Source: Isurus oxyrinchus
Taxonomy: Eukaryota
Reading direction: 5' to 3'
DNA length: 64,000 bases
Assembly (NCBI GenBank): GCA_026770705.1
Contig: JANJGN010000052.1
Coordinates: 3,410,001-3,474,000, forward strand
Every line of letters starts with the position of its first letter. Position 1 is the first letter of the stretch. Made by a program: the position numbers and the translations under genes. Under the pieces are notes generated by a model. It made no database searches. It worked only from the letters and a program-made list of their open reading frames with translations, and was not told where the DNA came from. Below, piece by piece: positions 1 to 51,000 of this stretch.

Positions 1-240
1 GGGTCCGATGGTGGAACCATGTTAACTTGCGATTGTGATTCTTGGAGTGAAATGCTATGATCCCTCTAGACCTTGTATTCCATGTATTCCATGTATACCA
101 TATCACATACCAGATTCCGACACGTGCTCTCCCTACTAAATGTGCTGGATAACTGTAATTACATGGAATCTGTATACACGAACCTTCCTGCGCTGTCACC
201 TCTCGTGGAGTGTCACCTTTCCACTCTTGTGACAGTCCAA
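1..240 (-). CDS. Siglec-like V-set Ig exon V1 (3' part runs off the window start)
   Basis: Acceptor ctctccccag|TT GGA CTG at 240; open frame VGLSQEWKGDTPREVTAQEGSCIQIPCNYSYPAHLVGRARVGIWYVIWYTWNTWNTRSRGIIAFHSKNHNRKLTWFHHRT; paralogous to the other V exons. Confidence 0.9.
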
Positions 241-2180: not shown

Positions 2181-2983
2181 CCATCCAGTCCAAGTTTCAC
2201 TTTGGCCTGTGAGCAGAACACAGCTCACACAGTTTGGCTGCAGGTGTCTCCCAGCTTTCTATCCTTGTATATCTGTTCTCATGTCCCTGTTCTAAATAAC
2301 TGAACCCACAATGTATTTACCCAATTCCGTATCAGTGGCTGGTGCCTTTATATCATTATAAAAACACAACATGGTGATCAGCGGTGGCCAACCATTCTGG
2401 CAGCAAGATTCAGTACAGGTATGACGTGGTGAACAGCCTTAGATCGAGCTACATGACATGAGATGACCCTCGACGCTTTGGTCAGACCACAACAGAGACA
2501 CAGCATCAGAGAGGGTTGAAATCGCAGTGTACTGACTGCTCAGGAAACCTTTGAAGACACAGTGACGGGAAAGAGTTCAAGTAAAGAGCTGGGGAGCAGA
2601 CGGATCCCTCGTGGTGAGATTACAGCACACGGCCTGTAGGTCAGTGAGTGGGACAGTGTGTATCGCCAGGACCAGCAGCGGGTTAGCTCAGTCAGGGAAG
2701 GCGAGTGACCAGGGTGTGGGCTGGATCGATAGTGAGCGAGGGAGAGTCAAACACACAAAAACCATTATAAAAATCAGCCCAGAGAAGTTAGTGATTATAA
2801 CGGGCGGCTTCGAGATTGCTGAACAGCAAATTGAATAAAAAACAAAGACTCCATTACTCCGTGGTGTGTTCCTGCCACAACCCGTCTTCGTGGGCGGAGC
2901 TTCAGAAAAGCACACAAAAGGGGCTAAAGCGACACTCATCCCAGGTCCTGTAGGATAAGGAAGGTCAAAGGAATATTGTCAGA

Positions 2984-4920
2984 ATGTCCACGAAATTCCC
3001 CAGTTTGAACTGGGATGTAGCTGACCGACTATCTGAATTCAGAATGTTTAAACAGCGTACAGAGCTCTGGTTTCCTGATTCAGGTGTGACTGAACCAGAC
3101 GAACAAGCCATAAAAATTCACCTCGCGATTGGGAATGAAAGTCTACACAGGCTGAACACATCAGCATTAACAGCAGAAGAGCGAAAGGATCCCCAATAGA
3201 TATGGACGATATTGGAAGACAGGGTCAGAATCAGGTTAAACTCCATATTCATCAACTAGAGTTTATGTCATTTCATCAGCCTACACAATCCATAGACCAC
3301 TTCATCAGCCGATGTAGAGAAAAGGGTACGCACTGTGATTTCAAACACAGAGCCTGCAGACACCGTTGTTGAGTTGGCGATCGCATCCACTCCCATGGAG
3401 GCCTTCCAGAAAGATCTGCTAGATAAGACCAAAACCTATAGCATTGAAGAGCTACTCAAGGATGGACATAAATACGAAGTGATCCTCGCAGGTCAACGAT
3501 GCTTACAGGTCCTCAGTACAACATCAATTGTTGACACACTCACTAGAACATCCAAACCTAGTGAGACGTGTGGAAGGTGTGGCCTTCTGCAGGCACCAAG
3601 GAAATGCCCAGCTTTCCACCAATCCTGCAAGGCTTGTGGCAGAAAGGGCCATTGATAGCGGCAGGGCACTAGAGCAAAGGCTGATGCAGCTACAAAGAGC
3701 CGTGCGCTGATCCAAACAGACCCTACACAACGGGGAACCTTCAAGCAAAAAGAATGACCATCCGGTATCCCATCAGGAACATAGACATGTGGTGACTGAC
3801 AAACCAGGAAATGGCGATGATGTACACGACGAGACTAGGAGCGGTGATCGATATTCCACCTCTCACACATATCCTGATGTGGCTTGCCAATAAATAATGG
3901 ATTGTTGTCTTTATTGATCTCTCTGGGCTCATCAAATAAACTGAAAATCTCCCATAGGGGTTGGATTTTCTGGCCCCACCCACTGCCAGGATTGTCTGGT
4001 CTGGTCAAAAGCCAATGGATTTATTTTTGTCCCACTTTCACGTACTACCCTTTCACCTCAGTTCATGACATAACATTGAAATATGCAGAAAGTTTCAACA
4101 ACATTGGCAGTTTCAAAGGAGCTCCAACATTACACCGGCTGGAGAATGCAAGTCTGTCAATTGATCTAGTCCATTTAGCACAACACAAATGCCAGCAGCT
4201 GCAAGAGGGAATGGTGAGATTCCACACTACAGAAACTGAGGAAGCATCTTTGAAGTATCTCCTGATTCAACTTGACCTTATTGGGATGAGCAAGGCATCT
4301 CCCGGGGAGTCATTTCTAAAGACAGGCAGGGCATCAGACTGGAATCTTTGTGATCGGATATTCTGCAACAACTTGGCAGTGGGAAATGGTGGGGACAGCC
4401 TGTCACGGTTAGAAAATGAGGGGCTCATTGGCAGGTGTCAGTACTGTCCACATGTGTGTCCATCTCAGGCTGTTGGCTGGCAGAGTCCTTACAAGGCTTT
4501 GAGATCACTTACAACATTTTGACTGTGACTCTCGACACTCCACTGTGCCTGCTCTTGGACAATGTCCTTTACAGAGCATCGAAGGGAGGGCCTGCTGAAC
4601 CTGCAATGTGAAAGACTGCTCAGGGGTATGTCCAATCCAGCAGGACAAATCTAACCTGGACAATCACTACCTTATCAATTTACTCTTCATCATAAGCAAA
4701 GTGATAAAGGTGTAATCGACATTAAGAGGCATTGACTCAACAATAACCTGCTCATCCAGCATGGTGGTAGTGCCACACAACACAATGGAGGGTATCCTCA
4801 GTGAAAGGACGGGACTTCATCTCCAAGGTTTCTGTTCAGAACCAGGGGCCTATGGAGTTATTACACACAAAGGATCAGCGGTGAGGCCTAACCAAGGAGA
4901 AATCAGATCCATTCCCGCTC
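2984..4920 (+). mobile_element. Degenerate Ty3/Gypsy-type LTR retrotransposon internal region (gag plus pol fragments), copy 1
   Basis: ORFs 2984-3199 and 3335-3655 are gag-like with zinc-knuckle CGRCGLLQAPRKCPAFHQSCKACGRKGH; stops/frameshifts; paralogue at 39306-42360 retains protease and integrase remnants. Confidence 0.75.
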
Positions 4921-5129
4921 CTCAATCACCTTACAGTCCTGTTGCATGGAGTCATCGGGCTGAATTTTCCCGTTGGCGAGCAGGGGGCGGGGCCTGCTCA
5001 GTGACACTATGATGATGCGGGATGACATCAGGAGGAAACCCTGACATCATCCTGCCTCATTTAAATATTCAGGCCCACCCGCCCGACAGGCAGGAAATTC
5101 AGCCCATAGAGTCAAAGATTCACAGGGGT

Positions 5130-7910
5130 CTACAGCACAGTAAAAGGCCCTTTGGCCCATCGAATCTGCGTCGGTCAAACAAGTACCTAATTATTCTAAT
5201 CCCATTAATGCACTGGGCCCAAAGCCTTGTATGCGATGGCATCACAAGTGCACATCCAAATACTTCTTAAATGTTATGAGGGTTTCTGCCTCTCCCACCC
5301 TTTCAGGCAGTGAGTTCCAGATTCAATCTATGCAACATCCTGGTAAATCTCCTCTGCACCCTCTCTAGGGCAATCACATTCTTCCTATAATGTGGGTTCC
5401 AGAACTGCACGCAATATTCTAGCTGTGGCCTAACCAGTGTTCTATACAGTTCCAGCATAACCTCCCTGCTCTTATATTCTATCTCTCGGCTAATAAAGGC
5501 AAGTATTCCATATGCCTTCTTAACCACCTTATCCACCTGTCCCACAACTTTAAGGGAACGGTGGACATGCACACCAAGGTCCCTCTGATCCTTGTTACTT
5601 TCCAGGGTCCTACCATTCATTGTCTATTCCTGTGCCTTGTTTATCCTGCCCAAGTGCATCACCTCACACTTATCCAGGTTAAATTCCCTTTGGCACTGAT
5701 CAGCCCATCTGACCAGCCCGTCTATATCCCCCTGTCATCTAAGGCTATCCTCCTCATTATTTACCCCCCCATCAATTTCCATATCATCCGCGAACTCACT
5801 GATCAACCTTCCTACATTCAAGTTTAGACCGTTTATATATACCACAAACAGCAAGGGACCCAGCACCGATCCCTGTGGAACCCCACTGGACACAGGCATC
5901 CAGTCACAAAAACACCCCTCGACCATCACCCTCTACTTCCTGGCACTCAGCCAATTCTTGATCCAATTTGCCAAATTCCCGGATCCCATGGGCTCTTACT
6001 TTCGTTTACAGTCTCCCATGCGGGACCTTATCAAAAGCCTTGCTGAAGTCCAAGTTGACTATGTCAAATTCATTGCCCTCATCTACACAATTGGTCACCT
6101 CTTCAAAAAATTCAATCAAACTGGTCAGACATGACCTCCCCTTAACAAGACCATGCTGACTGTCCTTGATTAATCCCTGCCTCTCCAAGTGTAGATTAAT
6201 TCTGTCCCTCAGAATTGCTTCCAATGGTTTCCCCACCACTGAGGTTAGACTGACTGGCCTGTTGTTCCCTGGTTTATCCCTTCCTCCCTTCTTGAATAAC
6301 GGTACCACATTGGCTGTCCTCCAGTCCTCTGGTACCTCTCCTCTGGCCAGAGATGTATTGAAAATTATTGCCAGCACCCCTGCTATCTCCTCCTTTGCCT
6401 CACTCAACAGCCTGAGATACATTTCATCCGGGCCTGCAGATATATCTACGTTTGAGACTGCCAGACCACTTAGAACCTCGTTCCTTTCTATTCTAATTTC
6501 TTTAACTATATCACAGTCCTTCTGCCTGATTTCCAAACCCTCATTGCCCCTCTCACTTGTGAACACTGACACAAAGTGTTCATTTAGAATCCTACCTACG
6601 TCTTCCGGCTCCACACACAAACTACCAATATGGTCCTTAATGAGCCTTAATCTTTCCCTAGTTATCCTCTTACTCTTAATGTACTTGTAAAATAACTTTG
6701 GATTTTCCTTCATTTTTCCTGCTAATGTTTCTTCATGCCCCCTTTTTGCTCTACTAATTTTCTTTTTAAGGTCCCCCCTACACATTCTATACTCTTCTAA
6801 GGCTTCCACTGTTTTGAGCCCTCGGTATCTGCCATAAGCCTCCCATTTTCTCTTTATCCAATCCTGTAAATCTCTCGACATCCAGGATTCCCTGGATTTG
6901 TTGGTCCCACCCTTTGCCTTTACTGGAATATGTTGGCCCTGTACTCTCCCCACTTCCTTCTTGAATGAGTCCCATTGCTCTGACGCAGATTTCCCTAAAG
7001 GTAGCTGCTCCCAGTTCCACTCTGGCCAAATCATATTTGATCTTATTAAAATCAGCCTTTCCCCAATTGAGAACTCAGATTTCTGGCCCATCCTTGTTCT
7101 TTTCCATAACAACCTAGAATCTAATGGAATGATGATCACTATCTGCACAATGCTCCCCCACTGATACGTCTACCACTTGCCTGGTTACATTCCTTAAAAT
7201 TTACTCCAGGACCGACCCCTCTCTTGTAGGATCTTCTATGTACTGGCTTAAAAATCTCTCCTGGATGCATTTTAACAATTCTGCCCCCTCTAAAACTATC
7301 ACACTATGACTAACCCAGTTATTGTTGGGGAAGGTGAAAAGCCCCACCATTACAACCCGATTATTTTTATACTTCTCTGAATGTTGCCTTTGTATCTGCA
7401 ATTCTATTTCTCTGAGTGTCATTGGGCCTGTAGAACACTCTCAGCAAGCTGATTGCTCCTTATTTGTTTTTAGGTTCTACCCATATGGCTTCATTTGAGG
7501 AGCCCCCTAAGGTGTCTTCCCTCCTCACTGCAATAACTGATTCCTTGATCAATCTTGCAATACCCCCTCCTCTTTTACCTCCTTCCCTGTCTTGCCAGAA
7601 GACCCTGTATCCTGTAATATTGAGCTGCCAATCCTGCCCCTCTCTCAACCATGTCTCTGTGACAGCAATGACATCATACATCCATGTGTTATTTGTGACC
7701 TCAACTCATCTGCTTTATTCGTCAAGACTCCTTGCATTAAAATAAATACAATCCAACTTTGCCACGCTATCTTGTGCCTTAACTGGCCAATAATTTCTCT
7801 GCCTTCCAGGTTCACTTGCTCTCTCTTCTAATTTTGGCTGTGCATCTCCCTCTGCTGAACCTCCTCTCGGGATCCCATCCCCTGCCATGTTAGTTTAAAA
7901 CCTCCCCAGT
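5130..7910 (-). mobile_element. CR1-clade LINE, ORF2 (endonuclease + reverse transcriptase), decayed
   Basis: ORFs 7460-7681 (YDVIAVTETWL, APE endonuclease), 6006-7148 (WRTANVVPLFKKG, RPVSLTSVVGK, LDFSKAFDKVPH), 5735-5929 (GVPQGSVLGPLLF, FADD), 5303-5620 (LVRPQLEYCVQFW). Confidence 0.95.
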
Positions 7911-10368
7911 TGCATCAAGGGCAAAATGCCAATTGAAACCAGGGAGAACATCCAAGAATGACAATCCCACAGATCACTGTGAGCATTTAAAGACACCTCC
8001 AGACAAGGTTACTACCACAAGATCTGGGCGTAAGTGCAGATTACCTCTACTCTTTAGAGACTCAAATATTCAACAAATCTATACTGTTATCTAATTGTCA
8101 ATAAAATTGAAAATGATACCAGAAACCTCTTGTTCCCTGTCCTTCTCAAAGATCCATCCCTGCAGCTGGAGCCTTAAGAGTTATTGATGTGGGGCTTAAT
8201 TTATCAGATTGTCGAATGATCGGGAACAAAAGGAAGCCATTTGGCTCATCGAGCCTGTGCTGGGCCTTTGAAATATCTGTCCAATTAGTCCCACTCTCAC
8301 CTCTGCTCTCTCCTCCACAGCCCTGCAAAATGTCCTCTTCAAGTATTTATCCAGTTCCCCTTCTGAAAGTTCCTGTTGAATCTGCTTCCACCGCCCTTTC
8401 AGGCAGTGAGTCAATGGTCTCTCTCTGAGCTGCAAAGTGCTAATGTTCTGTGAAATTTAAACTCTGCAGCAGGTCAGAGACAATTATGATAACTCAGAAT
8501 ATTTGACAGTTCTACACACAGACAGCTTTGCCTCCCTTGTCTCTTTCAGTTATCTTGCTCCCTTATTGAAGTATCTAGCATTGTGAGAATGGACAGGAAG
8601 AGTGACACTGAACAGCCTGTCTATTCTAGGAGCTGCTGTGTTGTCTTCATGGGAAATTCTGACTAAAATCAGCAAAAGACACGAAGTTTCAGGGCATTGT
8701 TATCCGAGTCCTAACATCAGGGTAGACCTCATCCCCCAGTTTTTATCCCTGATTTTCTATTCAGCCGATCGCTCCCCTGTCACTGGCTGACCTACACTAA
8801 CTCTCAGTCCAGCAATGACTCAAATTTCAAATTCTCATCATTGATTTCTTACCCCACCATCCCCCCTCTACACTCTCTATCACTGTAACCTCCTCCAACC
8901 CTAAAAACCTCAGAGATCTCTGCTCTCCTCCAATTCTGCTGTCAGACAGGAGGTCAGTGTGTATCAGTAAGCACAGAGGTGATGGGTGAATGGGACTTGG
9001 TGTGAGTTTGTACACTGGCTCACTGGCTCAATCGGGCAGGATTGAGATGGACTCCCCCACGGACTAACACCCCCCGCTTAATAAACAGTTCCAATCTTTA
9101 CCCAGAGAGAGGGGAGAATGTGGAACTCGCTCCCACAGGGAGTGGTTGAGGTGAACAGTATCGATGTATTTAAGGGGCAGGAGGGTCGGTAACCAGAGGG
9201 ACACAGATTGACCAACTGGAGGGGGAGATGAGGAGAATTTGTTTTGACAGAATGAGTTGTTGTGATCTGGAAGGTGCTGCCTGAAAGGGAGGTGGAAGCA
9301 GATCCAATAAGAACTTTCAAAAGGGAAATTGGATAAACACTAGAAGGAGGAAGATGGGGGCAAAGTGGAGTGGTGGTTAGTGGATCTGATGGGATAGAAC
9401 TTTGAAAGACCTGGCACAGTCTCAATGGGCTGAATGGCCTCCTCCTGTGCTGTATCATTCTCTGCTTCCATGATCTCTCCCCCAGTCAGTAACCACTCCA
9501 GATCCCTCTTGAAGGTGACAGAGAAACAGCAACCACCACACCCACTGACAGCACATTCCCGAGGATCCCTACTCTCTGGGAAAAGATGAACTCCCCAACA
9601 TCCAGCCTATTCCTGCTTCCCGGAGAGTGTAAACCCTTCAGGGATGCGCTGAGGAAGTTTTCAATAAAATGACATCAAATCTACCGTTTGAGAAATAATT
9701 GAATTCCGATGAACTCACAGCTTGTGTAGCAAACTGGGAAGTAGAGTTGCTGGGAAAGCTGGGAAACACAAGGATTAAGGGCTACAATGCCACCACTGGT
9801 GGGTGGCTGTAACTACACCGTGACGTTTACATAGGCAGTCATCATTACAAACAGGGGCATTGCACATAATGGGAATTATGTGCACGGAAATAGTGAGAAC
9901 ACTATGTAAGCTTTTCATCAGCAGGAATTCCCTTCCTAAACCTCTCCAACTCTCTCTTACTCTCAGATACACAAAGAAAATCACACAGAATCAGATAAGG
10001 AAGAGTTGGGTTGGTGATTCGTCAAAGGGTTAGGTTTCAGGAAGCTTCTTAAAGGGAGAGAGAGAGTTGGAGATGCAGAGAGTATCTGTGAGTGTCTCTA
10101 TGCATCTGAGTGTCTGTAATAGTAATTTCCATATTCTTCCATAAATATGAATGGGAACACAAATCCCAGAATTCAGGCCAACTCTCCAGTGCAGTACTGA
10201 GGGAGGTCAGGTAACCCATGAGGGAGTGAGTGTTAGTGTTTGTGTGTGAGTGTGTCTTTGTGTGTGTTCATATATGTGTGTCTGCACGTGTCTATTTAGG
10301 TGTGTATGTTCGATGGTGTTTGTGTCGTGTTCGAATCTGAGAGAGATGTTGAAGTCTGTGTAACTCAC

Positions 10369-10521
10369 GTTCCACAGTGATGGTTATGAACCCATCCACT
10401 GCTCCATGTTCATTCTCTGCCACACACTGATAGTCTCCAGTGTCCCTGGATGTAACATGAGGAATCACCAATCACAGCTAATTTTTGGAACTTGTTCTGT
10501 TCATTTGGACATTCAGATGTC
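10369..10521 (-). pseudogene. 5'-truncated membrane-proximal Ig exon (unit A)
   Basis: 3' half (..HVTSRDTGDYQCVAENEHGAVDGFITITVE, donor gtgagt at 10368) matches 30607-30888, but the 5' half and acceptor are replaced by unrelated sequence. Confidence 0.85.
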
Positions 10522-10844
10522 ATGGCAGGAATCAAGAAGCCCGTTCACAGGATTACCAACAGAAAGTGAACAACAATTTATACTTAATGGGAAGAGAGTG
10601 CTGATTGGTTGGCAAGTGGTCTCTGATAGGAGGAGGTGTTGCCATGGAGAATGGTGTGTGCGAGATGTAAAGTTTAGACAGCTTGTCTCTTCATTCAGCA
10701 ATAATCATATAAAGATCAATTAACTTCTATCGACTTTGAAGCACTTAGAGAGGCCTTAGAATGTGGATACTGAGAATGGGCTGCACTGTCAGAGGGTCTG
10801 CGCTGAGGGAGTGCTGATGTAGCATGAAAGGTGTATGTAATTAC

Positions 10845-11141
10845 CTTGCACAGTTAGTACGAGGGTCCGCTCCGATGAAACAGATGGATATCTCACTCTG
10901 CAGCTGAGATTGTGTCCGTGGTGTTTGAGTGATGGGATCAGGGTCAGAACAGAAGTATAGGTCAGAGTGACACCATGCTGAGTTACAGTGTTTGAGACTG
11001 ATCCAGGTACGTCAGTGGGAGTGTCCCAGGTTAAGACAGGTGCTGCTGTTCCATTGCACGTTGTGTTGAAGGTGCAGCTTACATCCACACGCTTTCCTGC
11101 AATAATTTCAGCAGGGAATATCGTGGGTTTATCTGTGAAAT
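10845..11141 (-). CDS. Siglec-type domain-2 C2-set Ig exon (unit A)
   Basis: ttag|AT TTC ACA GAT...CAA G|gtaatt, 297 nt, phase 1-1; DFTDKPTIFPAEIIAGKRVDVSCTFNTTCNGTAAPVLTW...LSCRVRY with the extra B-C loop Cys typical of Siglec domain 2. Confidence 0.9.
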
Positions 11142-12000
11142 CTAACAAACAGAGAATGGATCCTTTTAGAGAAATATAACGTGAAGCATCAGTTCAAATA
11201 GAAACCACAGTCCCACAAGAGAAAGCACTTTTACAAGGATGATATCAGAACTGAGAGGTTACAATGATCAGGAAAGATTTTCTTGCTCTTTGGCAGTAGT
11301 GTTTCTGTCTCTCAGCTTAATACACGTTCACTCCGAGACATGTGAATTGAGAACACTGGATGAGAGAAGAGGCTCAGACCAGAGATTGGAGTTAAAAGCA
11401 GAATACTGTGGATGCTGGAAATCTGAAACAAAAACAAAAATTGCTGGAAAGACTCAGCAGGTCTGACAGTATCAGTGGAGAGGAAGACAGGGTTAACGTT
11501 TCGAGTCCGTATGACTCTTCATCAGACCAGAGGTTTCTGTTCACTGGCTTCTCATTTCCTCAGTGATCTGGGTGATTTATTACATTGTGGTTTGTTGGAT
11601 CTTGCTGTGCACAAACTGACTGCTGTGTTTTACATCTGTGACTACAATTCAGGAATAATTTCATTGGCTGTGAAGGGATTTGGATCCTCCTGAGGTGGTA
11701 AATTGCGCTGCAGAAATGCACATCTTTCTTTTATCGATACGTCAGACTTTTAAACAGGACAGGAGAGATTGATGGGAGTGGATAACCTGATAATACAGTT
11801 AATGCTTTTCATCATTGATATTAAAGTGAGTATTAGAGGTTGCTTTAGGACTGAACTGGAAGCCATCACCAGGTTATTGAGAATCAGACAGTGTGTTAAA
11901 ATAAGTTGTGTTTTGTGTTAATATGTAAACGTCACAGTTTGTGTTATTTCCCATTGAGTGTTGAATGTGAATTGTTGAGTAATTATAACACAGCACTTAC

Positions 12001-12369
12001 CAGAAACGTGAAGCTGGGTTACAGGGTAATAGTTATGGCTCGGACCATTGTCAAATTCTATTCTGAAAAAATAAGGTCCTGCATCTTCCCGTCTGATGTT
12101 GTTTATAATCAGGGAACAGTCGCCATCTTTCAGGTCTCCAGACAGCCGGGTCCGATGGCGGAACCGTGGTAACTCGTGACTGTGATCCTTGGAGTGAAAG
12201 GCAATGGGAGCCCAGGGAATCTGTGTCTCATTATTAAACCAGAGTCCACCTCGTGGTTGATTTTCCAAATGTGCTGGATAACTGTAATGACATGGAATCT
12301 GTACACACGAACCTTCCTGCGCTGTCACCTCTCGTGGAGTGTCACCTTTCCACTCTTGTGACAGTCCAA
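12001..12369 (-). CDS. Siglec-like V-set Ig exon V2 (essential Arg present; unit A)
   Basis: cag|TTGGA...TCT G|gtaagt, 369 nt, phase 1-1; EGSCVQIPC, GDCSLIINNIRREDAGPYFFRIE Siglec V-set signature. Confidence 0.93.
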
Positions 12370-13229: not shown

Positions 13230-13269
13230 CTTGGAGAAGTGACAGGAGGAAGTAAGATTTCCCGATCAT
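13230..13269 (-). CDS. Signal-peptide exon (unit A): MIGKSYFSLSLLQ
   Basis: Acceptor ctttctctttcag at 13312, GACAATG start context, donor CAAG|gtaata, phase 1 joins V exon giving MIGKSYFSLSLLQVGLS/QEW. Confidence 0.85.
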
Positions 13270-13804: not shown

Positions 13805-14084
13805 CTGTGTGTTTAATGAGAAAGGGTTGATGTGTCTCTGGGAGACAAAATGGGGAAGTGGGTAATCAGTGAGAAGTTCGAGGATGTTTTGTGCTCTCAG
13901 CAAAACGTTTACCATGTGATGATCTGTCAGCTCATATTTGGGCAGCTGTAGTCATCAAGCTTCTCCATTGGCTCCGTGGGATTAGACCCCTCCCCCTCAT
14001 CTCAGAGCTGAAGCGCAGGCGATAGACTTCCCAATACAGGTCTCTGGCCGTATGATACATATTGACAATCCCTGATATCATTAC

Positions 14085-17110: not shown

Positions 17111-17250
17111 TTAAACAGTCTGTCGACGTCCTTTCACTGTTTGTCTCTCCCAGACACAGACTCCAGCGATAATGATAACCACAGCCACAAGGAATATCAC
17201 AGCTCGTATTCCCAGGATCAGGATCACGTGCAGAATCTCTCCTCCACTGT
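17111..17250 (-). CDS. Terminal transmembrane exon with intramembrane Arg and short tail (activating-type receptor)
   Basis: Acceptor tttctttctgtgtgttctctag| at 17251; phase-1 frame xSGGEILHVILILGIRAVIFLVAVVIIIAGVCVWERQTVKGRRQTV*; lies downstream of the unit B Ig exons in the compatible phase. Confidence 0.85.
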
Positions 17251-18919: not shown

Positions 18920-19072
18920 GTTCCACACTGATGGTTATGAACCCATCCACTGCTCCATGTTCATTCTCTGACACACACTGATAGTCTCCAGTGTCCCTGG
19001 ATGTAACATGAGGAATCACCAACCACAGCTCATTGTTGGAACTTGTTCTGTTCATTTGGACATTCAGATGTC
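18920..19072 (-). pseudogene. 5'-truncated membrane-proximal Ig exon (unit B)
   Basis: Same lesion and breakpoint as 10369-10521. Confidence 0.85.
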
Positions 19073-19395
19073 ATGGCAGGAATCAAGAAGCCCGTTCACA
19101 GGATTATCAACAGAAAGTGAACAACAATTTATACTTAATGGGAAGAGAGTGCTGATTGGTTGGCAAGTGGACTCTGACAGGTGGAGGTGTTGCCATGGAG
19201 AATGGTGTGTGCGAGATGTAAAGTTTAGACAGCTTGTCTCTTCATTCAGCAATAATCAAATAAAGATCAATTAACTTCTATCGACTTTGAAGCACTTAGA
19301 GAGGCCTTAGAATGTGGATACTGAGAACGGGCTGCACTGTCAGAGGGTCTGCGCTGAGGGAGTGCTGATGTAGAATGAAAGGTGTATGTAATTAC

Positions 19396-26226: not shown

Positions 26227-26343
26227 TTATAAATTCCCATAAACAGAATCCTTGGCAAAATCACAGTTTGCGTAAAGATCATCATCTGTATCAGGATTGA
26301 CTCCGCGGTTAGATTTCATTTCCAGATCCTTCTCATCTTTCTT
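26227..26343 (-). CDS. Last cytoplasmic exon with LYAN and ITIM-consensus SVYGNL
   Basis: ttctattacag|AAG AAA GAT...; KKDEKDLEMKSNRGVNPDTDDDLYANCDFAKDSVYGNL*. Confidence 0.88.
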   Translation of the reverse strand, partial: KKDEKDLEMKSNRGVNPDTDDDLYANCDFAKDSVYGNL

Positions 26344-29300
26344 CTGTAATAGAAACAGAAATGATCAGAGTGACAATTAGAGTGATCAGTGTTTAGTATT
26401 ATTGATCCAAATCGAAAATTCCACCCACAATAGATACATTAATTATTGATACTAAACAAGGTTTGATTATTGATACTGAACGGGGTTTGATTATTGATTG
26501 TGAATGGGGTTTGATTATTGATACTGAACGGGGTTTGATAATTGATTCTGAAGAGGGTTTGATTATTGATACTGAACGGGGTTTGATTATTGATTCTGAA
26601 TGGGGTTTGATTATTGATTCTGAACGGGGTTTGATTATTGATACTGAACGAGGTTTGATTATTAATTCTGAACGGGGTTTGATTATTGATTCTGAATGGG
26701 GTTTGAATATTGATACTGAACGGGGTTTGATTATTGATACTGAATGGGGTTTGAATATTGATTCTGAACGGGGTTTGATTATTGATACTGTACGGGGTTT
26801 CATTATTGATTCTGAACGGGGTTTGTTTATTGATTCTGAACGGGGTTTGATTATTGATTCTGAACGCGGTTTGATTATTGATTCTGAACGCGGTTTGATT
26901 ATTGATTCTGAATGGGGTTTGATTATTGATACTGAAGCGGGTTTGTTTATTGATAATGAACGGGGTGTGATTATTGATTCTGAACGGTGTTTGATTATTG
27001 ATTCTGAACAGGGTTTGATTATTGATTCTGAACGGGGTTTGATTATTGATTCTGAACAGGGTTTGATTATTGATTCTGAACGGGATTTGATTATTGATTC
27101 TGATCGGGGTTTGATTATTGATTCTGAAGGGGGTTTGATTATTGATACTGAACGGGGTTTAATTATTGATTCTGAACAGGGTTTGATTATTGATACTGAA
27201 AGGGGTTTGATTATTGATTCTGAACAGGGTTTGATTATTGATACTGAATGGGGTTTGATTATTGATTCTGAACGGGGTTTGATTATTGATACTGAACGGG
27301 GTTTGATTATTGATACTGAATGGGGTTTGATTATTGATTCTGAACAGGGTTTGATTATTGATTCTGAATGGGGTTTGATTATTGATTCTGAATGGGGTTT
27401 GATTATTGATACTGAACGGGGTGTGAATACTGATTCTGAACGGGGTTTGATTATTGATACTGAATGGGGTTTGATTATTGATATTGAATGGGTTTTGATT
27501 ATTGATTCTGAATGGGGTTTGATTATTGATTCTGAACGGGGTTTGATTATTGATTCTGAACGGGGTTTGATTATTGATTCTGAACGGGGTTTGATTATTG
27601 ATACTGTACGGGGTTTGATTATTGATACTGAATGGGGTTTGATTATTGATACTGAATGGGGTTTGATTATTGATTCTGAACGGGGTTTGATTATTGATTC
27701 TGAACGGTGTTGGGTGTGAGTTTGGTTGGGTTTGGGAGTGACTGTATAAAACGTTGCAGATACAGGACTGGAGCAGCCATATCAATAACCAGGCTACTGG
27801 AGCAGCTGAGAGGCTGGGGATCCTGTGGTGTGTGACTCACCTGATTCCTCAAAGCCCAACCACGCTCACAGTTTTCATAAACAGGACTTCGATGTTCATC
27901 AACACGATGGTTCGATTTGATTCCTGCTTTTCCCTTGCCTCTCTTCTGTAATAGAGATGGAAATGGACAGAGTGACAATCAACATGATGTGTATTCGGTG
28001 TTGGGTTTGATTACTGGGGAGAGAGTTCCAGATTTCCACTCCCCTTTGTGTGAAGAAGTGCTTCCTGACATCACCCCTGAACGGCCTGGCTCCAATCTGA
28101 AGTTCCGGCCCCCTTGTTCTGGACTCCACCCGACACCCACCACCCACCCCCACTCGAGGGAATAGCTTCTCTCTATCAACCCTATCGAGTGTTTAATCAG
28201 TTTGAACCCCTCAATTAGATCCCTCCTTAATCTTCTAGACCCGAGGGAATATAATCGTAGACTGTGTGTAACCTGTCTGCACAATTTAACCAGAAAGATG
28301 TTCTGTACAACAGACCTGAGTCTCACACCCAGATCTCAATAATCAGTAGAAATCTTTCAAAGGCATCAATCATTGGAATCTGTCTTTATAAAGTCACAAC
28401 ATCAACAAAGGACGGTGTTGGTGGTGGAAGTGAATTCCAATCGTTCTGTTACTTACCCAGGACCTGTCCGACTGCTTGCCTGGGGAGGAACTGCCCACAC
28501 GCTCTGCTTGGGCTGAATGACCTCTTCCTGTGCTGCTCCCTCTGTGTATTTAATGAGAAAGGGTTGATGTGTCACTGTGAGTCAAATGAGGAATTGGGGA
28601 ACAATTATGAAAACACTTTCATTGAAATGTAGGGCCTTAGTGTTGTGTTGTAAACAAACTGTTAACCCTTTGTGTCCTGACTCTGTGACGTGATTCCTGT
28701 GTAAAGCTGAGCAGTCGTTGAGCGAGTTTCAATTCACTGCTCAATCCAGCTGTTGAGGTGGATCTTCTGAAGCAGCAGATGTTGCTCAGCGCTCCTTAAA
28801 AATGTGCGATACTGAACAATGTGTAAGAGGACGAGAGAGAGAATGAGAAGGAGAGCATTAGTGGCGATAGGAGAGAGAGTGAATGAGAGAGAGAATGAGA
28901 AGGCGTGCATTAGTGGCAATAAGAGAGAGTGAATGAATCATGGAAAATGGAAAGAGATTGCATTCACTAACAAAAGAAAGGTTTTTATTTGTATAGCAGC
29001 ATTCACAAACTCAGGAGGTCAGAAGCTATTTTATGGTCCGGGTCAACACTGCCAGTTACAGGACTGAGTTGTGAAACAGTGAGTGTTGGATGAGATGTTA
29101 AACACTAGGTGAACATCAAAACTCTTCAGGGACTGCGAAGGGTTTTGGATTGTAAAAGGTGCTATAGAAATGCAAGTTCTTTCTATAAGGAGAGAAGTTT
29201 GAAGAAAACATTTTCAAAAACAACCAATTAAACCTTCACACTTACTTTCTCACACACTTGAAGATGAAGAATCCACTCAGTCCAACACTCAAACAGATTC

Positions 29301-32300
29301 CAGCTCCAAGCAATCCTGCTTTCCATTCATTGGAATCTCGCCCTGTAAAATCAGCCAATGAATGACTCCGGTACAGTTTGAGAATGGTTCCCTATGTACA
29401 TGTAGTAATTCTGAACTTGTGAAGTGATATTGTCTATGCATGAAAGGTCTATACAAATAACATTTATCTATGTAATATTTATTGATAATATCCATGTACA
29501 TGCAGGTTTCTATAAGGAGGATTCACATATAACAGAGGTGCCAAGCTGCTGAGGTGACACACAGGACTACATACACACCAAACAGCGGAAACAACATGCT
29601 ATAGACAGAGCAAAGCGATCCCACAACCAACGGGTCAGATCTAAGCTCTGCAGTCCTGCCACATCCAGTCATGAATGGTGATGGACAATAAGGATCTAAC
29701 AGGAGGAGGATGTTCCACAAATATCCCCATCCTTAATGATGGGGGAGCTCAGCACATCAGTGCAAACGACAAGGCTGAAGCATTGGCAACCATGTTCAGC
29801 CAGAAGTGCTGAGTGGATGATCCATCTCGGCCTCTTCCAGAGGGTCCCAGCATCACAGATGTCAGCTTTCAGACAATTCGATTGACTCCACGTGACATCA
29901 GGAATCAGCTGATGATACTGGATACAGCAAAGGCTATTGGCCCTGGCAACAACCCAGCAACAGGAAATAATGTGGCTACAAGAGCGGGTAAGAGGCTGGG
30001 AACTCTGCAGTGAGTAATTCAACTCCTGACCCCCCAAAGCCTGTCCACCATCGGACAAGGCACAAGTCAGGAGTGTGATGGAATAATCTCCACTTGGCTG
30101 GATGAGTGCAGCTCCAACAACACTCAAGAAGCTCGACACCATCCAGGAGCAGCTTGTTTGATCGACAGCCCAGCCACCAGCATAAACATTCATACCCTCC
30201 ACCACTGGCACACAATGGCAGCAGTGTGCACCATGTACAAGATGCGCTGCAGCAACTCACCAAGGCTCCTTCGACAGCACCTTCCAAACCCTTAACCTCT
30301 TCCACCAAGACAGTTCCAAGTCAGTGAGGTGTGTGACTTGGAGGCGAACTTGAGGTGGTGGTCTGCCCTGGGACTTGGAACTATATCGGCCGTTCCTTCA
30401 CCGTCTCTGGGTCAAAATCCTGGAACTCCCTCCCTAACAGCACTGTGGGTGTACCTACACCACATGGACTGCAGTGGTTAAAGAAGGCAGCTCACCACCA
30501 CCTTCTCAAGGGGCAGTTACAGATGGGCAATAATTTCTGGCCTTGTCAACAATACTCACATCCCATGAGCTAATAATAAGAGAACGTTCAATTCTGTGTA
30601 ACTCACGTTCCACAGTGATGTTTATGAATCCCTCCACTGCTCCATGTTCATTCTCTGCCACACACTGATAGTCTCCAGTGTCCCTGGATGTAACGTGAGG
30701 AATCACCAACCACAGCTCATTGTTGGAACTTGTTCTGTTCATTGGGACATTAAGATGTCGCCACGTCAGGTTAGAAGCTGGGAAGCTCTCGACAGAGCAG
30801 ATTATCACTGCAGAATTCCCCTCAATTATATTGATCGATGAAGCGTTAATCATATCAAGAGAAGTAATTGAGAGATTCTGTGGTGCATCTATAAACAAAT
30901 AAACATCAATTAAGTTACACTGACTGTGAAGCACTTTGAAAGACACTTAGAATGTGAAAGGTATGATCTCAATGTAGGTTCATTTTCACAAAGCCCGTAA
31001 TCCAGGCAGAGACTTCAGTTCAGTACTGAGGGAGTGCTGCACTGTCAGAGGGTCAGTACTGAGGGAGTGTTGCACTGTCAGAGAGTCAGTACTGAGGGAG
31101 TGCTGCACTGTCAGAGAGTCAGTACTGAGGGAGCACTGCACCGTCAGAGGTTCAGTGCTGAGGGAGTGCGGCACTGTCAGAGGGTCATTACTGAGGGAGT
31201 GCTGTACTGTTGGTGGGTAAGTACTGAGGGAGTGCTGCACTGTCAGAGAGTCAGTACTGAGGGAGTGCTGTACTGTCAGAGGTTCAGTACATAGGGACAG
31301 CTGCACTGTCTGATGGTCAGTCCAGAGGGGGTGCTGCACTGTTGGAGGATCAGAACTCGGGGGGTGCTGCAGTGTGGGAGGGCCAGTACTGAGGGAGCAC
31401 TGCACTGTTGAAGAGTCAGTACTGAGGGAGTGCTGCACTATCGAAGGTTCAGAACTGAGGGAGTGCTGCAGTGTTGGAGATTCAGTATTTAGGGACTGCT
31501 GCAGTGTCCGAGGCGAATTTGTATCAGTTAAAGACTATTGATTTGTTGCTAAACACAATGCAGTTGTGGGATCTTGCAGTGTACTATGTAGAGCTTTCTA
31601 GCTAATGTAGATGGAAGGGTGTCCGTTCTTACCTTGCACAGTTAGTACGAGGGTCCGCTCCGATGAAACAGATGGATATCTCACTCTGCAGCTGAGAGTG
31701 TGTCCGTGGTGTTTGAGTGATGGGATCAGGGTCAGAACAGAAGTATAGGTCAGAGTGACACCATGCTGAGTTACAGTGTTTGAGACTGATCCAGGTACGT
31801 CAGTGGGAGTGTCCCAGGTTAAGACAGGTGCTGCTGTTCCATTGCACGTTGTGTTGAAGGTGCAGCTTACATCCACAGGCTTTCCTGCAATAATTTCCGC
31901 AGGGAATATCGTGGGTTTATCTGTGAAATCTAACAGACAGAGAATGGATCCTTTTAGAGAAATATAACGTGAAGCATCAGTTCAAATAGAAACCACAGTC
32001 CCACAAGAGAAAGCACTTTTACAAGGATGATATCAGAACTGAGAGGTTACAATGATCAGGAGAGCATTTCCTGCTTTGACACTTTGGTGTTTCTGTCTCT
32101 CAGCTTAACACACGTTCACTCCGAGACACTTGAACTGATAATAGTGGGTGAGGGTGGAGGAGCAGACCAGAGTTTGGAGTGCACTACCCCATCATTCACT
32201 CAGCGATCTGGGCCATTTATTACTTTGCAATTTGTGGGAGCTTGCTGTGCGCAAATTGGCTGCTGTGTTTCTCACATTACAACAGTAACTACAATTCAGG

Positions 32301-35300
32301 AATCAGCTCATTGGCTGTGAAGTGATTTGGTACGTTCTGAGGTGGTGAAAGGTGCTATAGAAATGTGAATCTTTCTTCTGTCGATATGTCAGGCTTCGAG
32401 ACATTAGAGATTAGGATTAGAGAGATTGATGGGAGTGGATAACCTGATAACATTGATGGACACAGTCAATATATTTAATCATTGATATTAAAGTGAGTAT
32501 TAGAGGTTGCTTTAGGACTGAACTGGAAGCTATCACCAGGATATCGAGAATCAGACAGTGTGTTATAATAAGCTGTGTTTTGTGTTAATATGTAAACGTC
32601 ATAGTTTGTGTTATTTCCCATTGAGTGTTGAATGTGAAATGTTGAGTAATTATAACACAGCACTTACCAGAAACGTGAAGCTGGGTTACAGGGTAATAGT
32701 TATGGCTCGGAGCATTGTCAAATTCTATTCTGAAAAAATAAGGTCCTGCATCTTCCCGTCTGATGTTGTTCATAATCAGAGAACAGTCGCCATCTTTCAG
32801 GTCTCCAGACAGCCGGGTCCGATGGTGGAACTGTGGTAACTCGTGACTGTGATCTTTGGAGTGAAAGGCTATAGACAATGTTCTCCGTTCCTCATTATGA
32901 AACCAGACTCCAACTCGTGGTTGGTTTTCCAGACACGATGGATAACTGTAATGACATGGAATCTGTACACAGGAATCTTCCTGAGCTGTCACCTCTCGTG
33001 GAGTGTCACCTTTCCACTCTTGTGACAGTCCAACTGTGGAGAGAAATCTCAATATTTATCTCTGGATGTTTTGTGGATCCACTGAACCCGATATTTACAG
33101 ATGAGACAGAATTTGGAGGATGGTTAATACTGAGGAGAATGGCAACAAATTATTTTGGCAGGATGAATAGAAAAACAGAATATTATTTAAATGGAGAGAG
33201 GCTGCAGAATGCAGTACAGAGGGATCTGGGTGTCCTTGTACATGAATCACAGAAAGTCAGCATTCAGGAACACCACGGAATGAGGAAGGCAAGTGGAATG
33301 TTGGCCTTTATTGCAAAGGGATGGAGTATAAAAGGAGGGAAGTCTTGCAACAGCTGCACAGGGCGTTGGTGAGAATGTAACAGGATCATTGTGTACAGGC
33401 AGTTCAGAGAAGCTTCACTGGGCTGATTCCTGGGATTAAAGGGTTTATCCTGTGAGGAAATGTTGAGCAGGTTGGGCCTGTATCCATTGGAGTTTAGAAG
33501 AATGAGGGGTGACCTTATTGAAACATATCCGATTCCGAGGGGGCTTGACAGGGTGGATGCTGGGAGGATGTTTCCCCCTCGTGGGGGAATCTAGAACCAG
33601 GGAGCACAGTTTCGGAATGAGGACTCTCCCATTTAAGACTGAGATGAGGAGGAATTTCCTCTCTCAGAGGGGCGCTAGCCTGTGGAATTCTCTTCCCCAG
33701 AGAGCAGTGGAGGCTGGGCCATTGAATAGACTCAAGGCTGAGTGAGGCAGGTTTTTGATCGACAAGGGAGTCAAGGGTTTGGGGGACAGGCAGGAAAATG
33801 GAGTTAAGGACACCACCAGATCAGTGAGAGCAGGCTCTAGGGGCCGAATGGCCTGCTCCTGTCCCTATTTCTTATGTTCCTACATTCTTACCTTCTTAAA
33901 ATATTAAAGCTGCAGAATAAACATGCAAGTGACTGACCCGCTCGACCCACCTTCCATCTGGGGGTCCCATGGGGAGGACCCTTCCTGAGCCAGATCCACC
34001 AGCCAACATGGTCTGGATCCGAGCACTGGAGACACGGTGGGGAGTGACTAACAGGCTCCTTGTGACAGGCCCCGTCTGTCCAATGGCTGGCTTTCAGCTG
34101 CCATGGCCAGAGTGGTCCTTGCTAAAACCGGCTCAGGACAGGCCAGGACCCCTGTGCAGACCCCCTCCAGCACGGCAGCCTCTGTACAAACCCCTCATGC
34201 GCTTGTGGAGAGACACAAACAAGGCTGCACATTACCGAGGAGAATCCCCTCTACGGACTAAGGGGCTGACTCATCACCTTAAACTCAGCAAATGAGGAGG
34301 CTCTCGCTCGGTATCAGGGCTTGGCATTGGCTCAATAAAAATAATCAAATTACATTTTGGTCAGAAATCTAAGGATGTTGTACATTCCCTCAAAAATAAG
34401 ACTCAAGGCTGAAGGCACAACTGCCGATGTTGGAGTTTTGGGATCGGGGGATGGTCAAGAGGCTTGGATTGGAGGAGCGCAGAGACCTCATATGGTTGGA
34501 GTGACTGGAGGAGGTTACAGAGATAGGAAGTGTTGTACGGTCTGAAAAAGTTAAGAGAGATTGGGAGAGTGTAGGGTCTGGAGGAGATTACAGAGACAGT
34601 GAGGGTTGTAGTGATTAGAGGAGTTACAGAGATAGGGAGGGTTGTAGCGGCTGGAAAAGTTAAGAGAGATTGGGAGAGTGTAGGGTCTGGAGGAGTTTGC
34701 AGAGGTAGGGAGGGTTGTAGTGACTGGGGCAGGTTACAGGGGCAGGGAAAGTTGTCGGGACTGGAGCAGGCTACAGAGATACGGAAGCTTTTAGGGGCAG
34801 GAGGAAGTTACAGAAATAGGGAGGGTTGTAGTGGCTGGAGGAGGTTGCAGAGATTGGTAGGTTTGTTTTGGCAGGATGAATTTACAGCTATAGGGAAGTG
34901 GTAGAGAATTGAAGAGGTTACAGAGAATGGGATGATTGTAGATACTGGAGGAGGACGAGGAGATTACAGGGATAATGAGGAAACAAAGATGAAAATTTGG
35001 ACATTGAGACTTTGCTTGACCAGGAGCCAGTCTCGGTCATCGAGCAGAGCGGGTGATAAGGGAACGGGACTTGGTGTGAGTAAGGACGTGGTCAGCAGTT
35101 TTGGATGGCCTCAAGTTTATGGAGTGTAGAGCATGTGTTGGAACAGTCGAGTGTGGAGGTAATGAAGGTGTGGATGAGGGTTTCAGCAGCAGATGAGCTG
35201 AGACAGGGTGATGTCGTGCGATGTTACGGAGGTGGAAATAGACGGTGTTAGTGAGGGCGCAAATATGAGGCCGGAAGCTCATCTCAGGATCAAATGGGAC

Positions 35301-47980: not shown

Positions 47981-48097
47981 TTATAAATTCCCATAAACAG
48001 AATCCTTGGCAAATTCACAGTTTGCGTAAAGATCATCATCTGTATCAGGATTGACTCCGCGGTTAGATTTCATTTCCAGATCCTTCTCATCTTTCTT
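47981..48097 (-). CDS. Last cytoplasmic exon (unit D), ...DDDLYANCEFAKDSVYGNL*
   Basis: Paralogue of 26227-26343, intact. Confidence 0.88.
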   Translation of the reverse strand, partial: KKDEKDLEMKSNRGVNPDTDDDLYANCEFAKDSVYGNL

Positions 48098-51000
48098 CTG
48101 TAATAGAAACAGAAATGATCAGAGTGACAATCAGAGTGATCAGTGTTTAGTATTATTGATCCAAATCGAAAATTCCACCCACAATGGATACATTAATTAT
48201 TGATACTGAACAGGGTTTGATTATTGATACTGAACGGGGTTTGATTATTGATTCTGAACGGGGTTTGATTATTGATTCTGAACGGGATTTGATTATTGAT
48301 ACTGAACGAGGTTTGATTATTGATTCTGAACGGGGTTTGATTATTGATTCTGAACGGGGTTTGATAATTGATTCTGAACGGCGTTTGATTATTGAAACTG
48401 AATGGGGATTGATTATTGATTCTGAATGGGGTTTGATTATTGATACTGAACGAGGTTTGATTATTGATTCTGAACGGTGTTTGATTATTGATACTGAACG
48501 GGGTTTGATTATTGATTCTGAACGGGGTTTGATTATTGATTCTGAACGGGGTTTGATTATTGATACTGAACGGGTTTTGATTATTGATTCTGAACGGTGT
48601 TGGGTGTGAGTTTGGTTGGGTTTGGGAGTGACTGTATAAAACATTGCATATACAGGACTGGAGCAGCCATATCAATAACCAGGCTACTGGAGCAGCTGAG
48701 AGGCTGGGGATCCTGTGGTGTGTGACTCACCTGATTCCTCAAAGCCCAACCACGCTCACAGTTTTCATAAACAGGACCTCGATATTCATCAGCATGATGG
48801 TTCGATTTGATTCCTGCTTTCCCCTCGCCTCTCTTCTGTAATAGAGATGGAAATGGACAGAGTGACAATCAACATGATGTGTATTCGGTGTTGGGTTTGA
48901 TTATTGGGGAGAGAGTTCCAGATTTCCACTCCCCTTTGTGTGAAGAAGTGCTTCCTGACATCACCCCTGAACGGCCTGGCTCCAATCTGAAGTTCCAGCC
49001 CCCTTGTTCTGGACTCCACCCGACCCCCACCACCCACCCCCACCCGAGGGAATAGCTTCTCTCTATCGACCCTATCGAGTGTTTAATCAGTTTGAACCCC
49101 TCAGTTAGATCACTCCTTAATCTTCTAGACCCGAGGGAATATAATCGTAGACTGTGTGTAACCTGTCTGCACAATTTAACCAGAAAGATGTTCCGTACAA
49201 CTGACCTGAGCCTCACACCCAGATCTCAATAATCAGTAGAAATCTTTCAAAGGCATCATCATTGGTATCTGTCTTTATAAAGTCACAACATCAACAAAGG
49301 ACGGTGTTGGTCATGGAATTCCAATCGTTCCGTTACTTACCCAGGACCTGTCCGACTGCTCGCCTGGGGAGGAACTGCCCACACGCTCTGCTTGGGCTGA
49401 ATGACCTCTTCCTGTGCTGCTCCCTCTGTGTGTTTAATGAGAAAGGGTTGATGTGTCTCTGTGAGTCAAATCAGGAATTGGGGAACAATTGTGAAAACCC
49501 TTTCACTGAAACGTAGGGCCTTAGTGTTGTGTTGTAAGCAAACTGTTAACCCTTTGTGTCCTGACTCTGTGACGTGATTCCTGTGTAAAGCTGAGCAGTC
49601 GTTGAGCGAGTTTCAATTCACTGCTCACTCCAGGTGTTGAGGTGGATCTTCTGAAGGAACAGATGTTGCTCAGCGCTCGTTTAAAATGTGTGAGACTGAA
49701 CAATGTGTAAGAGAACGAGAGAAAGAATGAGAAGGAGAGCATTAGTGGAGTTTGGAGAGAGAGTGAATGAGAGAGAGAATGAGAAGGAGAGCATTAGTGG
49801 AGGTAAGAGAGAGTGAATGAGAGAGAGAGAATGAGAAGGAGAGTATTAGTGGAGATAAGAGAGAGAGTGAATTAGACAGAGAAAATGGAAAGAGATTGCA
49901 TTCACTAACAAAAGAAATGTCTTCATTTATATGTTCCCTTTCACATCCTCAGGAAGTCACAAGGTATTTTATGGTCCAGGTCAACACTGCCAGTTACAGG
50001 ACTGAGTTGTGAAACATTGAGTGTTGGATGAGATGTGAAACAGTGAGTGAACATCAAAGCTCTTCAGGGGTTGTGGAGGGTTTTGGGTTGTGAAAGGTGC
50101 TATAGAAATGCAAGTTCTTTCTATAAGGAGCGAAGGTTGAAGAAAACATGTTCAAAGACAATTAAACCTTCACACTTACTTTCTCACACACTTGAAGATG
50201 AAGAATCCACTCAGTCCAACACTCAAACAGATTCCAGCTCCAAGCAATCCTGCTTTCCATTCATTGGAATCTCGCCCTGTAAAATCAGCCAATGAATGAC
50301 TCCGGTACAGTTTGAGAATGGTTCCCTATGTACATGTAGTAATTCTGAACTTGTGAAGTGATATTGTCTATGCATGAAAGGTCTATACAAATAACATTTA
50401 TCTATGTAATATTTATTGATAATATCCATGTACATGCAGGTTTCTATAAGGAGGATTCACATATAACAGAGGTGCCAAGCTGCTGAGGTGACACACAGGA
50501 CTACATACACACCAAACAGCGGAAACATCATGCTATAGACAGAGCAAAGCGATCCCAACGGGTCAGATCTAAGCTCTGCAGTCCTGCCACATCCAGTCAT
50601 GAATGGTGATGGACAACTAAAGATCTAACAGGAGGAGGATGTTCCACAAATATCCCCATCCTTAATGATGGGGGAGCTCAGCACATCAGTGCAAACGACA
50701 AGGCTGAAGCATTGGCAACCATGTTCAGCCAGAAGTGCTGAGTGGATGATCCATCTCGGCCTCCTCCAGAGGGTCCGAGCATCACAGATGTCAGCTTTCA
50801 GACAATTCGATTGACTCCACGTGACATCAGGAATCAGCTGATGATACTGGATACAGCAAATGCTATTGGCCCTGGCAACAACCCGGCAACAGGAAATAAT
50901 GTGGCTACAAGAGCGGGTAAGAGGCTGGGAACTCTGCGGTAAGTAACTCACCTCCTGACTCCCCAAAGCCTTTCCACCATCGACAAGGCACAAGTCAGGA

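What the first reader, a model, noticed from the sequence alone, without database searches (positions are those of the whole stretch)
60..150. Hypervariable C-C' loop diversified by in-frame 9-nt microduplications
Seen: frameworks are almost invariant, but the segment after the C-strand Trp differs in sequence and length: YVIWYTWNTWNTRSRGI (V1), FNNETQIPWAP (V2), FHNEERRTLS (V3), KMRRYIRNKWSKWS (V4), FHNEKHIPWAP (V5), KMRRYIQNKWSKWS (V6). V1 has TGTATTCCA x2 plus TGTATACCA; V4 and V6 have AGACCATTT x2. All indels keep the frame. Established: the C-C' loop sets Siglec ligand specificity. Inference: germline CDR-like diversification under positive selection, with Trp-rich or basic loops on outer domains perhaps binding microbial or polyanionic ligands.
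Basis: partly seen in the sequence, partly recalled or inferred. Interest (0 to 1): 0.7.

Follow-up and report, generated by a model that had tools for sequence, protein, structure and literature searches.

The report
Shark Siglec cap domains, shuffled loops
In a shark cluster of hundreds of Siglec-like immune receptor genes, the long tryptophan-rich, positively charged loops sit only on an extra outermost domain and come in a handful of types, some lengthened by exact 9-base duplications; the types are likely old and likely kept and reshuffled by gene conversion rather than freshly diversified like antibody loops.

Summary
Observation confirmed: six Siglec-type V exons on the minus strand, with the stated loops and 9-nt repeats. 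They belong to a huge family (675 loop matches, 494 C2-exon matches). All 675 loop lengths keep the frame, and the ACATGGAAT unit occurs in 1, 2 or 3 copies. Loops fall into about ten types, not a hypervariable continuum. Within-type pN/pS is 0.66 against 0.75 in the framework. Trp-rich, basic loops mark a separate outermost 'cap' V domain (first in 14 of 14 mapped genes), stacked on Arg-bearing core domains. Cap and core differ silently at 50% of comparable codons beside the loop but only 2-7% in the framework; linkage decays within about 30 nt; the same loop types occur in white and basking sharks. Best reading: frameworks homogenised by short-tract gene conversion, with old binding-face modules (BC/C/CC' and F-G) kept and recombined. 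Ligands are untested. The scan earlier noted gene conversion, Arg loss and the inner Cys on other pieces of this genome. No paper on the expansion was found in four searches.

The parts
1..240 (-). V1 exon, cap type (19-residue loop, Arg kept); continues 146 nt beyond the window start; followed outside the window by a core V, C2, TM-B and an ITIM-type tail
53..109 (-). V1 C-C' loop YVIWYTWNTWNTRSRGIIA; 9-nt unit at 74-100, found in 1, 2 or 3 copies among paralogues
12001..12369 (-). V2 exon, core type, sole V behind leader 13231-13269; followed by C2 10849-11139 and a broken I-set exon; no TM exon of its own found
17114..17248 (-). TM-C exon with intramembrane Arg and short tail (activating type, inferred); its gene (leader 21275, C2 19400-19690) has lost most of its V exon by deletion near 20590
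26230..26337 (-). Last tail exon of the V4-V3 gene, with DDLYANC and SVYGNL tyrosine motifs
29245..29343 (-). TM-A exon of the V4-V3 gene
30596..31927 (-). C2 exon (31637-31927) and I-set exon (30596-30886) of the V4-V3 gene
32668..33033 (-). V3 exon, inner core type: Arg kept, BC-loop Cys, 12-residue loop
36209..36586 (-). V4 exon, cap type: KMRRYIRNKWSKWS loop with exact 9-nt duplication at 36414-36431; Thr in place of the essential Arg; leader at 43565-43603
47984..59011 (-). C2 (58721-59011), three I-set exons, TM-A (50179-50277) and tail (47984-48091) of the V6-V5 gene
59826..60194 (-). V5 exon, inner core type: Arg kept, BC-loop Cys, 13-residue loop
63386..63763 (-). V6 exon, cap type: KMRRYIQNKWSKWS loop with 9-nt duplication at 63591-63608; Thr in place of Arg

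Best explanation
The loop belongs to a distinct outermost 'cap' V domain in a family of several hundred shark Siglec-like receptor genes, and its few types are likely old binding-face modules that were kept while the surrounding framework was likely homogenised by short-tract gene conversion. Shown: genes are leader-(V)1-7-C2-(I-set)0-11-TM, with three tail types; caps carry basic, aromatic loops and stand first; inner domains carry the Arg, a neutral-to-acidic loop and a BC-loop Cys. Shown: exact 9-nt duplications lengthen cap loops by one W-x-x unit. Inferred: slippage makes these steps and selection for an open frame keeps them. Inferred: conversion homogenises strands A-B and D-E and recombines the 5' module (BC/C/CC') with the 3' module (F-G), giving combinatorial germline variety, while selection keeps position-specific modules from being overwritten. 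Inferred and untested: core domains bind sialic acid, while caps read other or more anionic ligands, possibly microbial, for both inhibitory and activating family members.
For: Position: 14 of 14 caps in 864 kb are first in their V run and followed by an Arg-bearing core V; 0 of 81 cap exons have a C2 exon in the next 1.25 kb or more, against 64 of 93 core exons; 79 of 81 caps share one downstream-intron cluster with only 1 core exon. BC-loop Cys: 31 of 31 inner V, 0 of 30 first V. Silent differences at same-amino-acid codons, cap x core: BC/C 0.50, F-G 0.22 (0.51 between F-G types), framework 0.02-0.07, equal to within-class values; donor-side intron 0.04. Consensus Fisher p is 0.0009, 0.002 and 7e-7 for three of four cap types and 0.07 for the fourth. 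Recombination: r2 falls from 0.26 (<10 nt) to 0.07 (>30 nt), permutation p=0.001; loop types pair with several F-G types. Age: cap loops of the same types occur in Carcharodon and Cetorhinus proteins; the own inner face is 0.10-0.12 from their inner faces but 0.54 from own caps. Selection: within-type loop pN/pS 0.66; codon-model omega 0.76 framework, 1.10 face, log-likelihood only about 1 unit better than omega=1. Spliced molecules: GT-AG joints C2 to TM-C in 3 of 4 laid runs and V to C2 in 3 of 4; one run holds the exact V4 loop (124 nt, 0 differences) with leader-V and V-V joins and no intron cover. The runs' RNA status is a guess.
Against: Island estimates rest on few comparable codons per pair (3-5), and clustered multi-base changes could inflate them. 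The face has a higher N:S ratio than framework among shared variants (Fisher p=0.016), and the core BC/C segment has pN/pS 2.85 (p=0.014, uncorrected over 12 tests), so some diversifying selection is likely. Per-type loop omegas scatter from 0.21 to undefined (4 N, 0 S in one type). No nucleotide data from other sharks were available. The 174 exons are a sample enriched for caps, not the whole family. 48 of 81 caps keep the Arg, so caps are not simply non-lectins. No ligand data.
Confidence: 0.68

Rival explanations
1. Ongoing CDR-like diversification: the loop is a present-day hotspot of 9-nt slippage and amino-acid change under positive selection.
For: The WNT unit occurs in 1, 2 and 3 copies; the 12- and 15-residue cap loops differ by 9 nt; face omega is 1.10 against 0.76; one cap type has 4 N and 0 S loop changes.
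Against: 26 of 27 long WNT loops have the same length; 380 of 675 loops have one length, most listed ones near FNNEKQIPWAP; within-type pN/pS is 0.66; the types are shared with two other shark genera.
Confidence: 0.15
2. Neutral birth-and-death: loops are structurally tolerant, so indels and substitutions accumulate there; in-frame survival is ordinary purifying selection and cap types have no distinct function.
For: Overall omega is near 0.8-1.1; 13 of 174 exons are broken or unparsed; V-less and leader-less copies lie in the window; the loop is low-confidence coil in the model.
Against: Neutral conversion should erode islands and position-specific residues, yet Cys is 31 of 31 inner against 0 of 30 first, caps are always first, and cap loops keep a shared basic-aromatic chemistry (mean net charge +1.4 to +5.1 against -0.6 to -0.9 in the two main core types).
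Confidence: 0.14
3. Assembly artefact: copy number and loop repeats come from uncollapsed haplotypes or errors.
For: The family lies on many unplaced contigs, some with identical exons, so total counts may include both haplotypes; the 3-copy loop is seen once.
Against: 100 C2 matches lie in the first 2.87 Mb of one contig; the V4 loop is found letter for letter in a public run; related loops are in other species' proteins.
Confidence: 0.03

Closest known systems
CD33-related Siglecs (Siglec-5, -7, -8, CD33), sialoadhesin and MAG V-set domains
   Same: Best PDB sequence hits are Siglec-5/-7/CD33 (E about 2e-15); best fold hits are sialoadhesin and MAG (TM 0.83-0.85). F-strand Arg in core domains. 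The variable segments match the BC, CC' and GG' loops that frame the Siglec-7 site (PMC12648312, passages).
   Different: Up to 7 V domains per gene in the mapped region, about 500 gene copies, a dedicated cap domain with 12-22-residue Trp-rich loops; human Siglecs have one outermost V (PMC8161119, passages).
Primate Siglec-12 / human Siglec-XII
   Same: Two V-set domains; loss of the essential Arg abolishes sialic-acid recognition in Siglec-XII (PMC6288428, passages).
   Different: Here Arg loss is a recurring module (Thr, Ser, Met or Gly in 31 of 81 caps) across many genes, with Arg-bearing domains beneath.
Paired Siglec-11/16 and Siglec-5/14; CEACAM families
   Same: Gene conversion homogenises ectodomains of inhibitory and activating receptors (PMC5701461 passages; PMC6288428); selection can exclude conversion from ligand-binding exons (PMC7042247, abstract only).
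   Different: There whole exons are converted between two genes; here conversion appears to act inside one exon among hundreds of copies, sparing two binding-face islands.
Large germline Ig-receptor families such as chicken CHIR and teleost NITR (recalled, not from a call)
   Same: Many tandem genes, paired signalling types, variable V or Ig faces.
   Different: Different domain family; no sialic-acid site; not compared here.

Membership tests
Siglec | N-terminal V-set domain of Siglec type | tested here: met
   Pfam V-set and Ig_CD22; PDB sequence hits; V1 model pLDDT 88.8 with sialoadhesin as top fold hit
Siglec | Essential F-strand Arg in the outermost V domain | tested here: inconclusive
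   Arg aligns with Siglec-5/-7 YFFR. Present in 88 of 93 core and 48 of 81 cap exons; absent in V4 and V6, present in V1
Siglec | B-E intra-sheet cysteine pair plus a third Cys for the V-C2 link (feature recalled) | tested here: met
   C19, C24 and C88 are invariant in 34 aligned shark and ray sequences; the C2 exon has three Cys. Bonds themselves not shown
Siglec | C2-set domains, TM, tyrosine-motif tail or charged TM | tested here: met
   C2, I-set, TM-A (YANC/SVYGNL), TM-B (LYANINF/TEYAQI) and TM-C (Arg) mapped in 864 kb
Siglec | Sialic-acid-dependent binding | not testable with these tools
   needs glycan arrays
CD33-related Siglec subgroup (orthology) | Descent from the mammalian CD33r cluster rather than from MAG/CD22/sialoadhesin | not tested
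   Sequence hits favour Siglec-5/-7, fold hits sialoadhesin/MAG; no tree with tetrapod Siglecs and no synteny was done
CDR-like hypervariable loop under positive selection | dN/dS above 1 and above framework in the loop | tested here: not met
   Within-type pN/pS 0.66 loop against 0.75 framework; between-type loops not alignable; site-mixture models crashed
CDR-like hypervariable loop under positive selection | Length variation in frame and confined to the loop | tested here: met
   675 of 675 in frame; 161 of 161 intact exons have fixed length outside the loop

The most novel reading that the evidence does not exclude
Lamniform sharks carry a germline combinatorial innate repertoire of hundreds of Siglec-derived receptors. 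In it a Trp-rich, cationic cap domain, tuned in 9-nt W-x-x steps and often freed of the sialic-acid Arg, recognises non-sialic microbial or polyanionic ligands, is stapled onto a stalk of sialic-acid-binding domains, and is recombined by intra-exon gene conversion across inhibitory and activating tails: a dual self and non-self sensor not described in other vertebrates.
Probability: 0.25. Interest if true: 0.8.

Novelty: new variant of a known kind. Interest (0 to 1): 0.52.

Why it matters
Siglec families known from mammals have about 15 members with one binding domain. A shark family with about 500 copies, stacked V domains and a specialised cap shows how far a sugar-sensing receptor can be turned into a germline repertoire. 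It is also a clean natural case of conversion homogenising a scaffold while binding-face modules persist across genera. The small number of loop and F-G types makes the ligand question directly testable with about a dozen constructs.

Tried and rejected
1) Compensated-frameshift origin of the basic cap loop from the acidic core loop (MRRN read from a shifted NEE): alignment gain not significant, p=0.18; left as a hint. 2) Caps preferring activating (TM-C) genes: 8 of 14 against 2 of 15 in the mapped 864 kb, but 15 of 34 against 18 of 66, p=0.07, in a separate 2.87 Mb; not established, caps occur on all three tail types. 3) Site-mixture codon models crashed in IQ-TREE; only single-omega fits were obtained, on trees affected by recombination. 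4) The run search listed no holder on record as RNA; runs X3, X4 and X6 have no cover over the V4 loop, which is no evidence either way. 5) A pattern search for the TM-C exon found nothing because the pattern was wrong; repeated with a real 20-mer. 6) Paper searches listed no study of a shark Siglec expansion; one search listed general concerted-evolution papers. The library lacks most subscription journals; no supplements were read. The whale shark paper names Siglecs once (PMC8455134, passage); PMC13358205 has no shark mention (passages). 7) The classic claim that the C-C' loop sets Siglec-7/-9 specificity is recalled; the passages read show only that it contributes. 8) A word search of earlier scan notes for this loop found none.

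Full report
Observation. Each lies in a V exon bounded by AG and GT. The domain is a Siglec-type V-set: Pfam V-set and Ig_CD22, best solved relatives Siglec-5, -7 and CD33. An AlphaFold model of the full V1 (pLDDT 88.8) matches sialoadhesin and MAG best. In the model the segment is a coil between strand C (37-44) and strand C' (58-62), with the lowest confidence of the domain.

Context. The window lies on a 4.17-Mb contig of a 5-Gb genome. The closest named proteins are from white and basking sharks (up to 95% and 92%), and the family spans sharks and rays. A loop-anchoring pattern finds 675 family members, a C2-exon 20-mer 494 and an Arg-TM 20-mer 196. These counts include pseudogenes and may include both haplotypes; 100 C2 matches lie in the first 2.87 Mb of one contig. 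In 864 kb mapped around the window, genes read leader, 1-7 V, one C2, 0-11 I-set, then one of three TM/tail types. Two carry tyrosine motifs and one has an intramembrane Arg and a short tail.

Loop lengths. Gaps are 33 (2), 36 (159), 39 (380), 45 (33), 48 (74, by subtraction), 57 (26) and 66 (1): 675 of 675 in frame. The only other match is unrelated sequence on C7. Exons with changed anchors escape this count: 5 of 174 extracted exons are frameshifted, four of them outside the loop, and one decayed copy has several gaps in and beyond it. Among 161 intact exons every length difference is in the loop. Exact 9-nt repeats are significant in the KWSKWS and WNT types only. The WNT unit occurs once, twice or three times, and 12- and 15-residue cap loops differ by 9 nt. 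Core loops differ by 3-nt steps. These are about ten types, so the number of independent indel events is small, and in-frame survival needs only purifying selection.

Two kinds of V domain. Loops starting (Y/K)MRR or YV(K/I)WY define caps: mean net charge +1.4 to +5.1, mostly 3-5 aromatics. The two main core types have -0.6 to -0.9. All 14 caps in the mapped region are first in their gene and followed by an Arg-bearing core V. None of 81 caps is followed directly by C2, against 64 of 93 cores, and 79 of 81 caps share a downstream intron type found after only one core exon. Inner domains carry a BC-loop Cys (31 of 31; 0 of 30 first domains), as an earlier scan note reported. The essential Arg is kept in 88 of 93 cores and 48 of 81 caps; V4 and V6 have Thr, V1 keeps Arg. 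The sample of 174 exons was enriched for caps by design; 13 were dropped as broken or unparsed and 138 distinct sequences were analysed.

Selection. Counting distinct codon variants within six alignable loop types gives 42 N and 18 S changes, pN/pS 0.66, against 0.75 in the framework; using only shared variants gives 0.53 against 0.52. Single-omega codon fits give 0.76 for framework and 1.10 for the non-loop face, about one log-likelihood unit above omega=1. Against this reading, the face has relatively more N changes than framework among shared variants (p=0.016), the core BC/C segment has pN/pS 2.85 (p=0.014, uncorrected), and one cap type has 4 N and 0 S loop changes. Some diversifying selection on the face is therefore likely, but the loop is not a present-day dN/dS hotspot.

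Old islands in a homogenised scaffold. Class majority sequences differ in two islands, BC/C/CC' and F-G, and are almost identical elsewhere, including the first 55 intron bases. At codons with the same amino acid, cap and core differ silently at 0.50 in BC/C and 0.22 in F-G (0.51 between F-G types), but at 0.02-0.07 in framework, the same as within a class (only 3-5 island codons per pair). Linkage decays within about 30 nt, four-gamete pairs rise with distance, and loop types pair with several F-G types. Caps keep their own downstream intron across a middle stretch as alike as within a class, which points to short internal conversion tracts rather than a recent origin. White and basking shark proteins hold the same loop types (for example NMRRYTRNKWSKW, YMRRIGETWNEWS, MKWYTWNTWS). 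Own inner faces are 0.10-0.12 from theirs and 0.54 from own caps. Catshark multi-V proteins also have a distinct first domain (RVGIWYY, GNNKYSY..ET) without the long Trp loop, so the cap role looks older than the loop lengthening (inference).

Expression. No run is on record as RNA. Laid contigs show GT-AG joints C2 to TM-C and V to C2 in 3 of 4 runs each. One run holds the exact V4 loop with leader-V and V-V joins and no intron cover; it may come from the source animal. V1 itself lacks its own leader: its intron ends at a duplication joint at about 9035, some 80 nt short of where the leader would be, so this copy may be rearranged or dead.

Mechanism and comparison. Shown: architecture, loop types, repeats, positional rules and divergence pattern. 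Inferred: slippage adds W-x-x units; conversion homogenises the scaffold and recombines two binding-face modules; selection preserves position-specific modules. Untested: ligands. The islands correspond to the BC, CC' and GG' loops around the Siglec-7 site (PMC12648312, passages). Gene conversion in paired Siglecs (PMC5701461, PMC6288428, passages), two-V Siglec-12 and Arg loss are known. The scale, the cap domain and conversion inside one exon were not found in the paper searches.

Noticed in passing
G000:C52:2280463-2299817: About ten V exons in one tandem run at about 2037-bp spacing: likely a receptor with ten or more V domains.
   Followed up: no
window 20540-20600: A deletion removes the acceptor and most of a V exon, leaving leader-C2-TM-C. 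Eleven cap-less C2 exons with TM-C at 2210-2230 bp may be the same V-less or broken type.
   Followed up: partly
window 9030-12031 and 17581-20582: A 3-kb duplication (97.6%) whose joint replaces V1's leader exon.
   Followed up: partly
window 23401-23439 and 45673-45711: Extra leader exons about 2.1 kb upstream of the used leaders; tandem leaders recur in the mapped region.
   Followed up: no
L049 (G000:C52:3357919-3358170) and five similar places: A second, distant V-domain family (about 30% identity, loop WYKYWYRWKYTI) is interspersed in the cluster.
   Followed up: no
L001, L002, L033 (G000:C34 near 15.14-15.19 Mb): Divergent short-loop copies on a larger contig; possibly the edge of the cluster and useful for synteny.
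   Followed up: no
window 14078-15765, 24129-24890, 26442-27711, 61156-62108: Intronic or intergenic minisatellites of 33, 43, 24 and 37 bp.
   Followed up: no
window 2566-7169 and 38888-40791: Open frames that look like decayed retroelement pieces in the leader introns of V1 and V4 (identity judged by eye).
   Followed up: no
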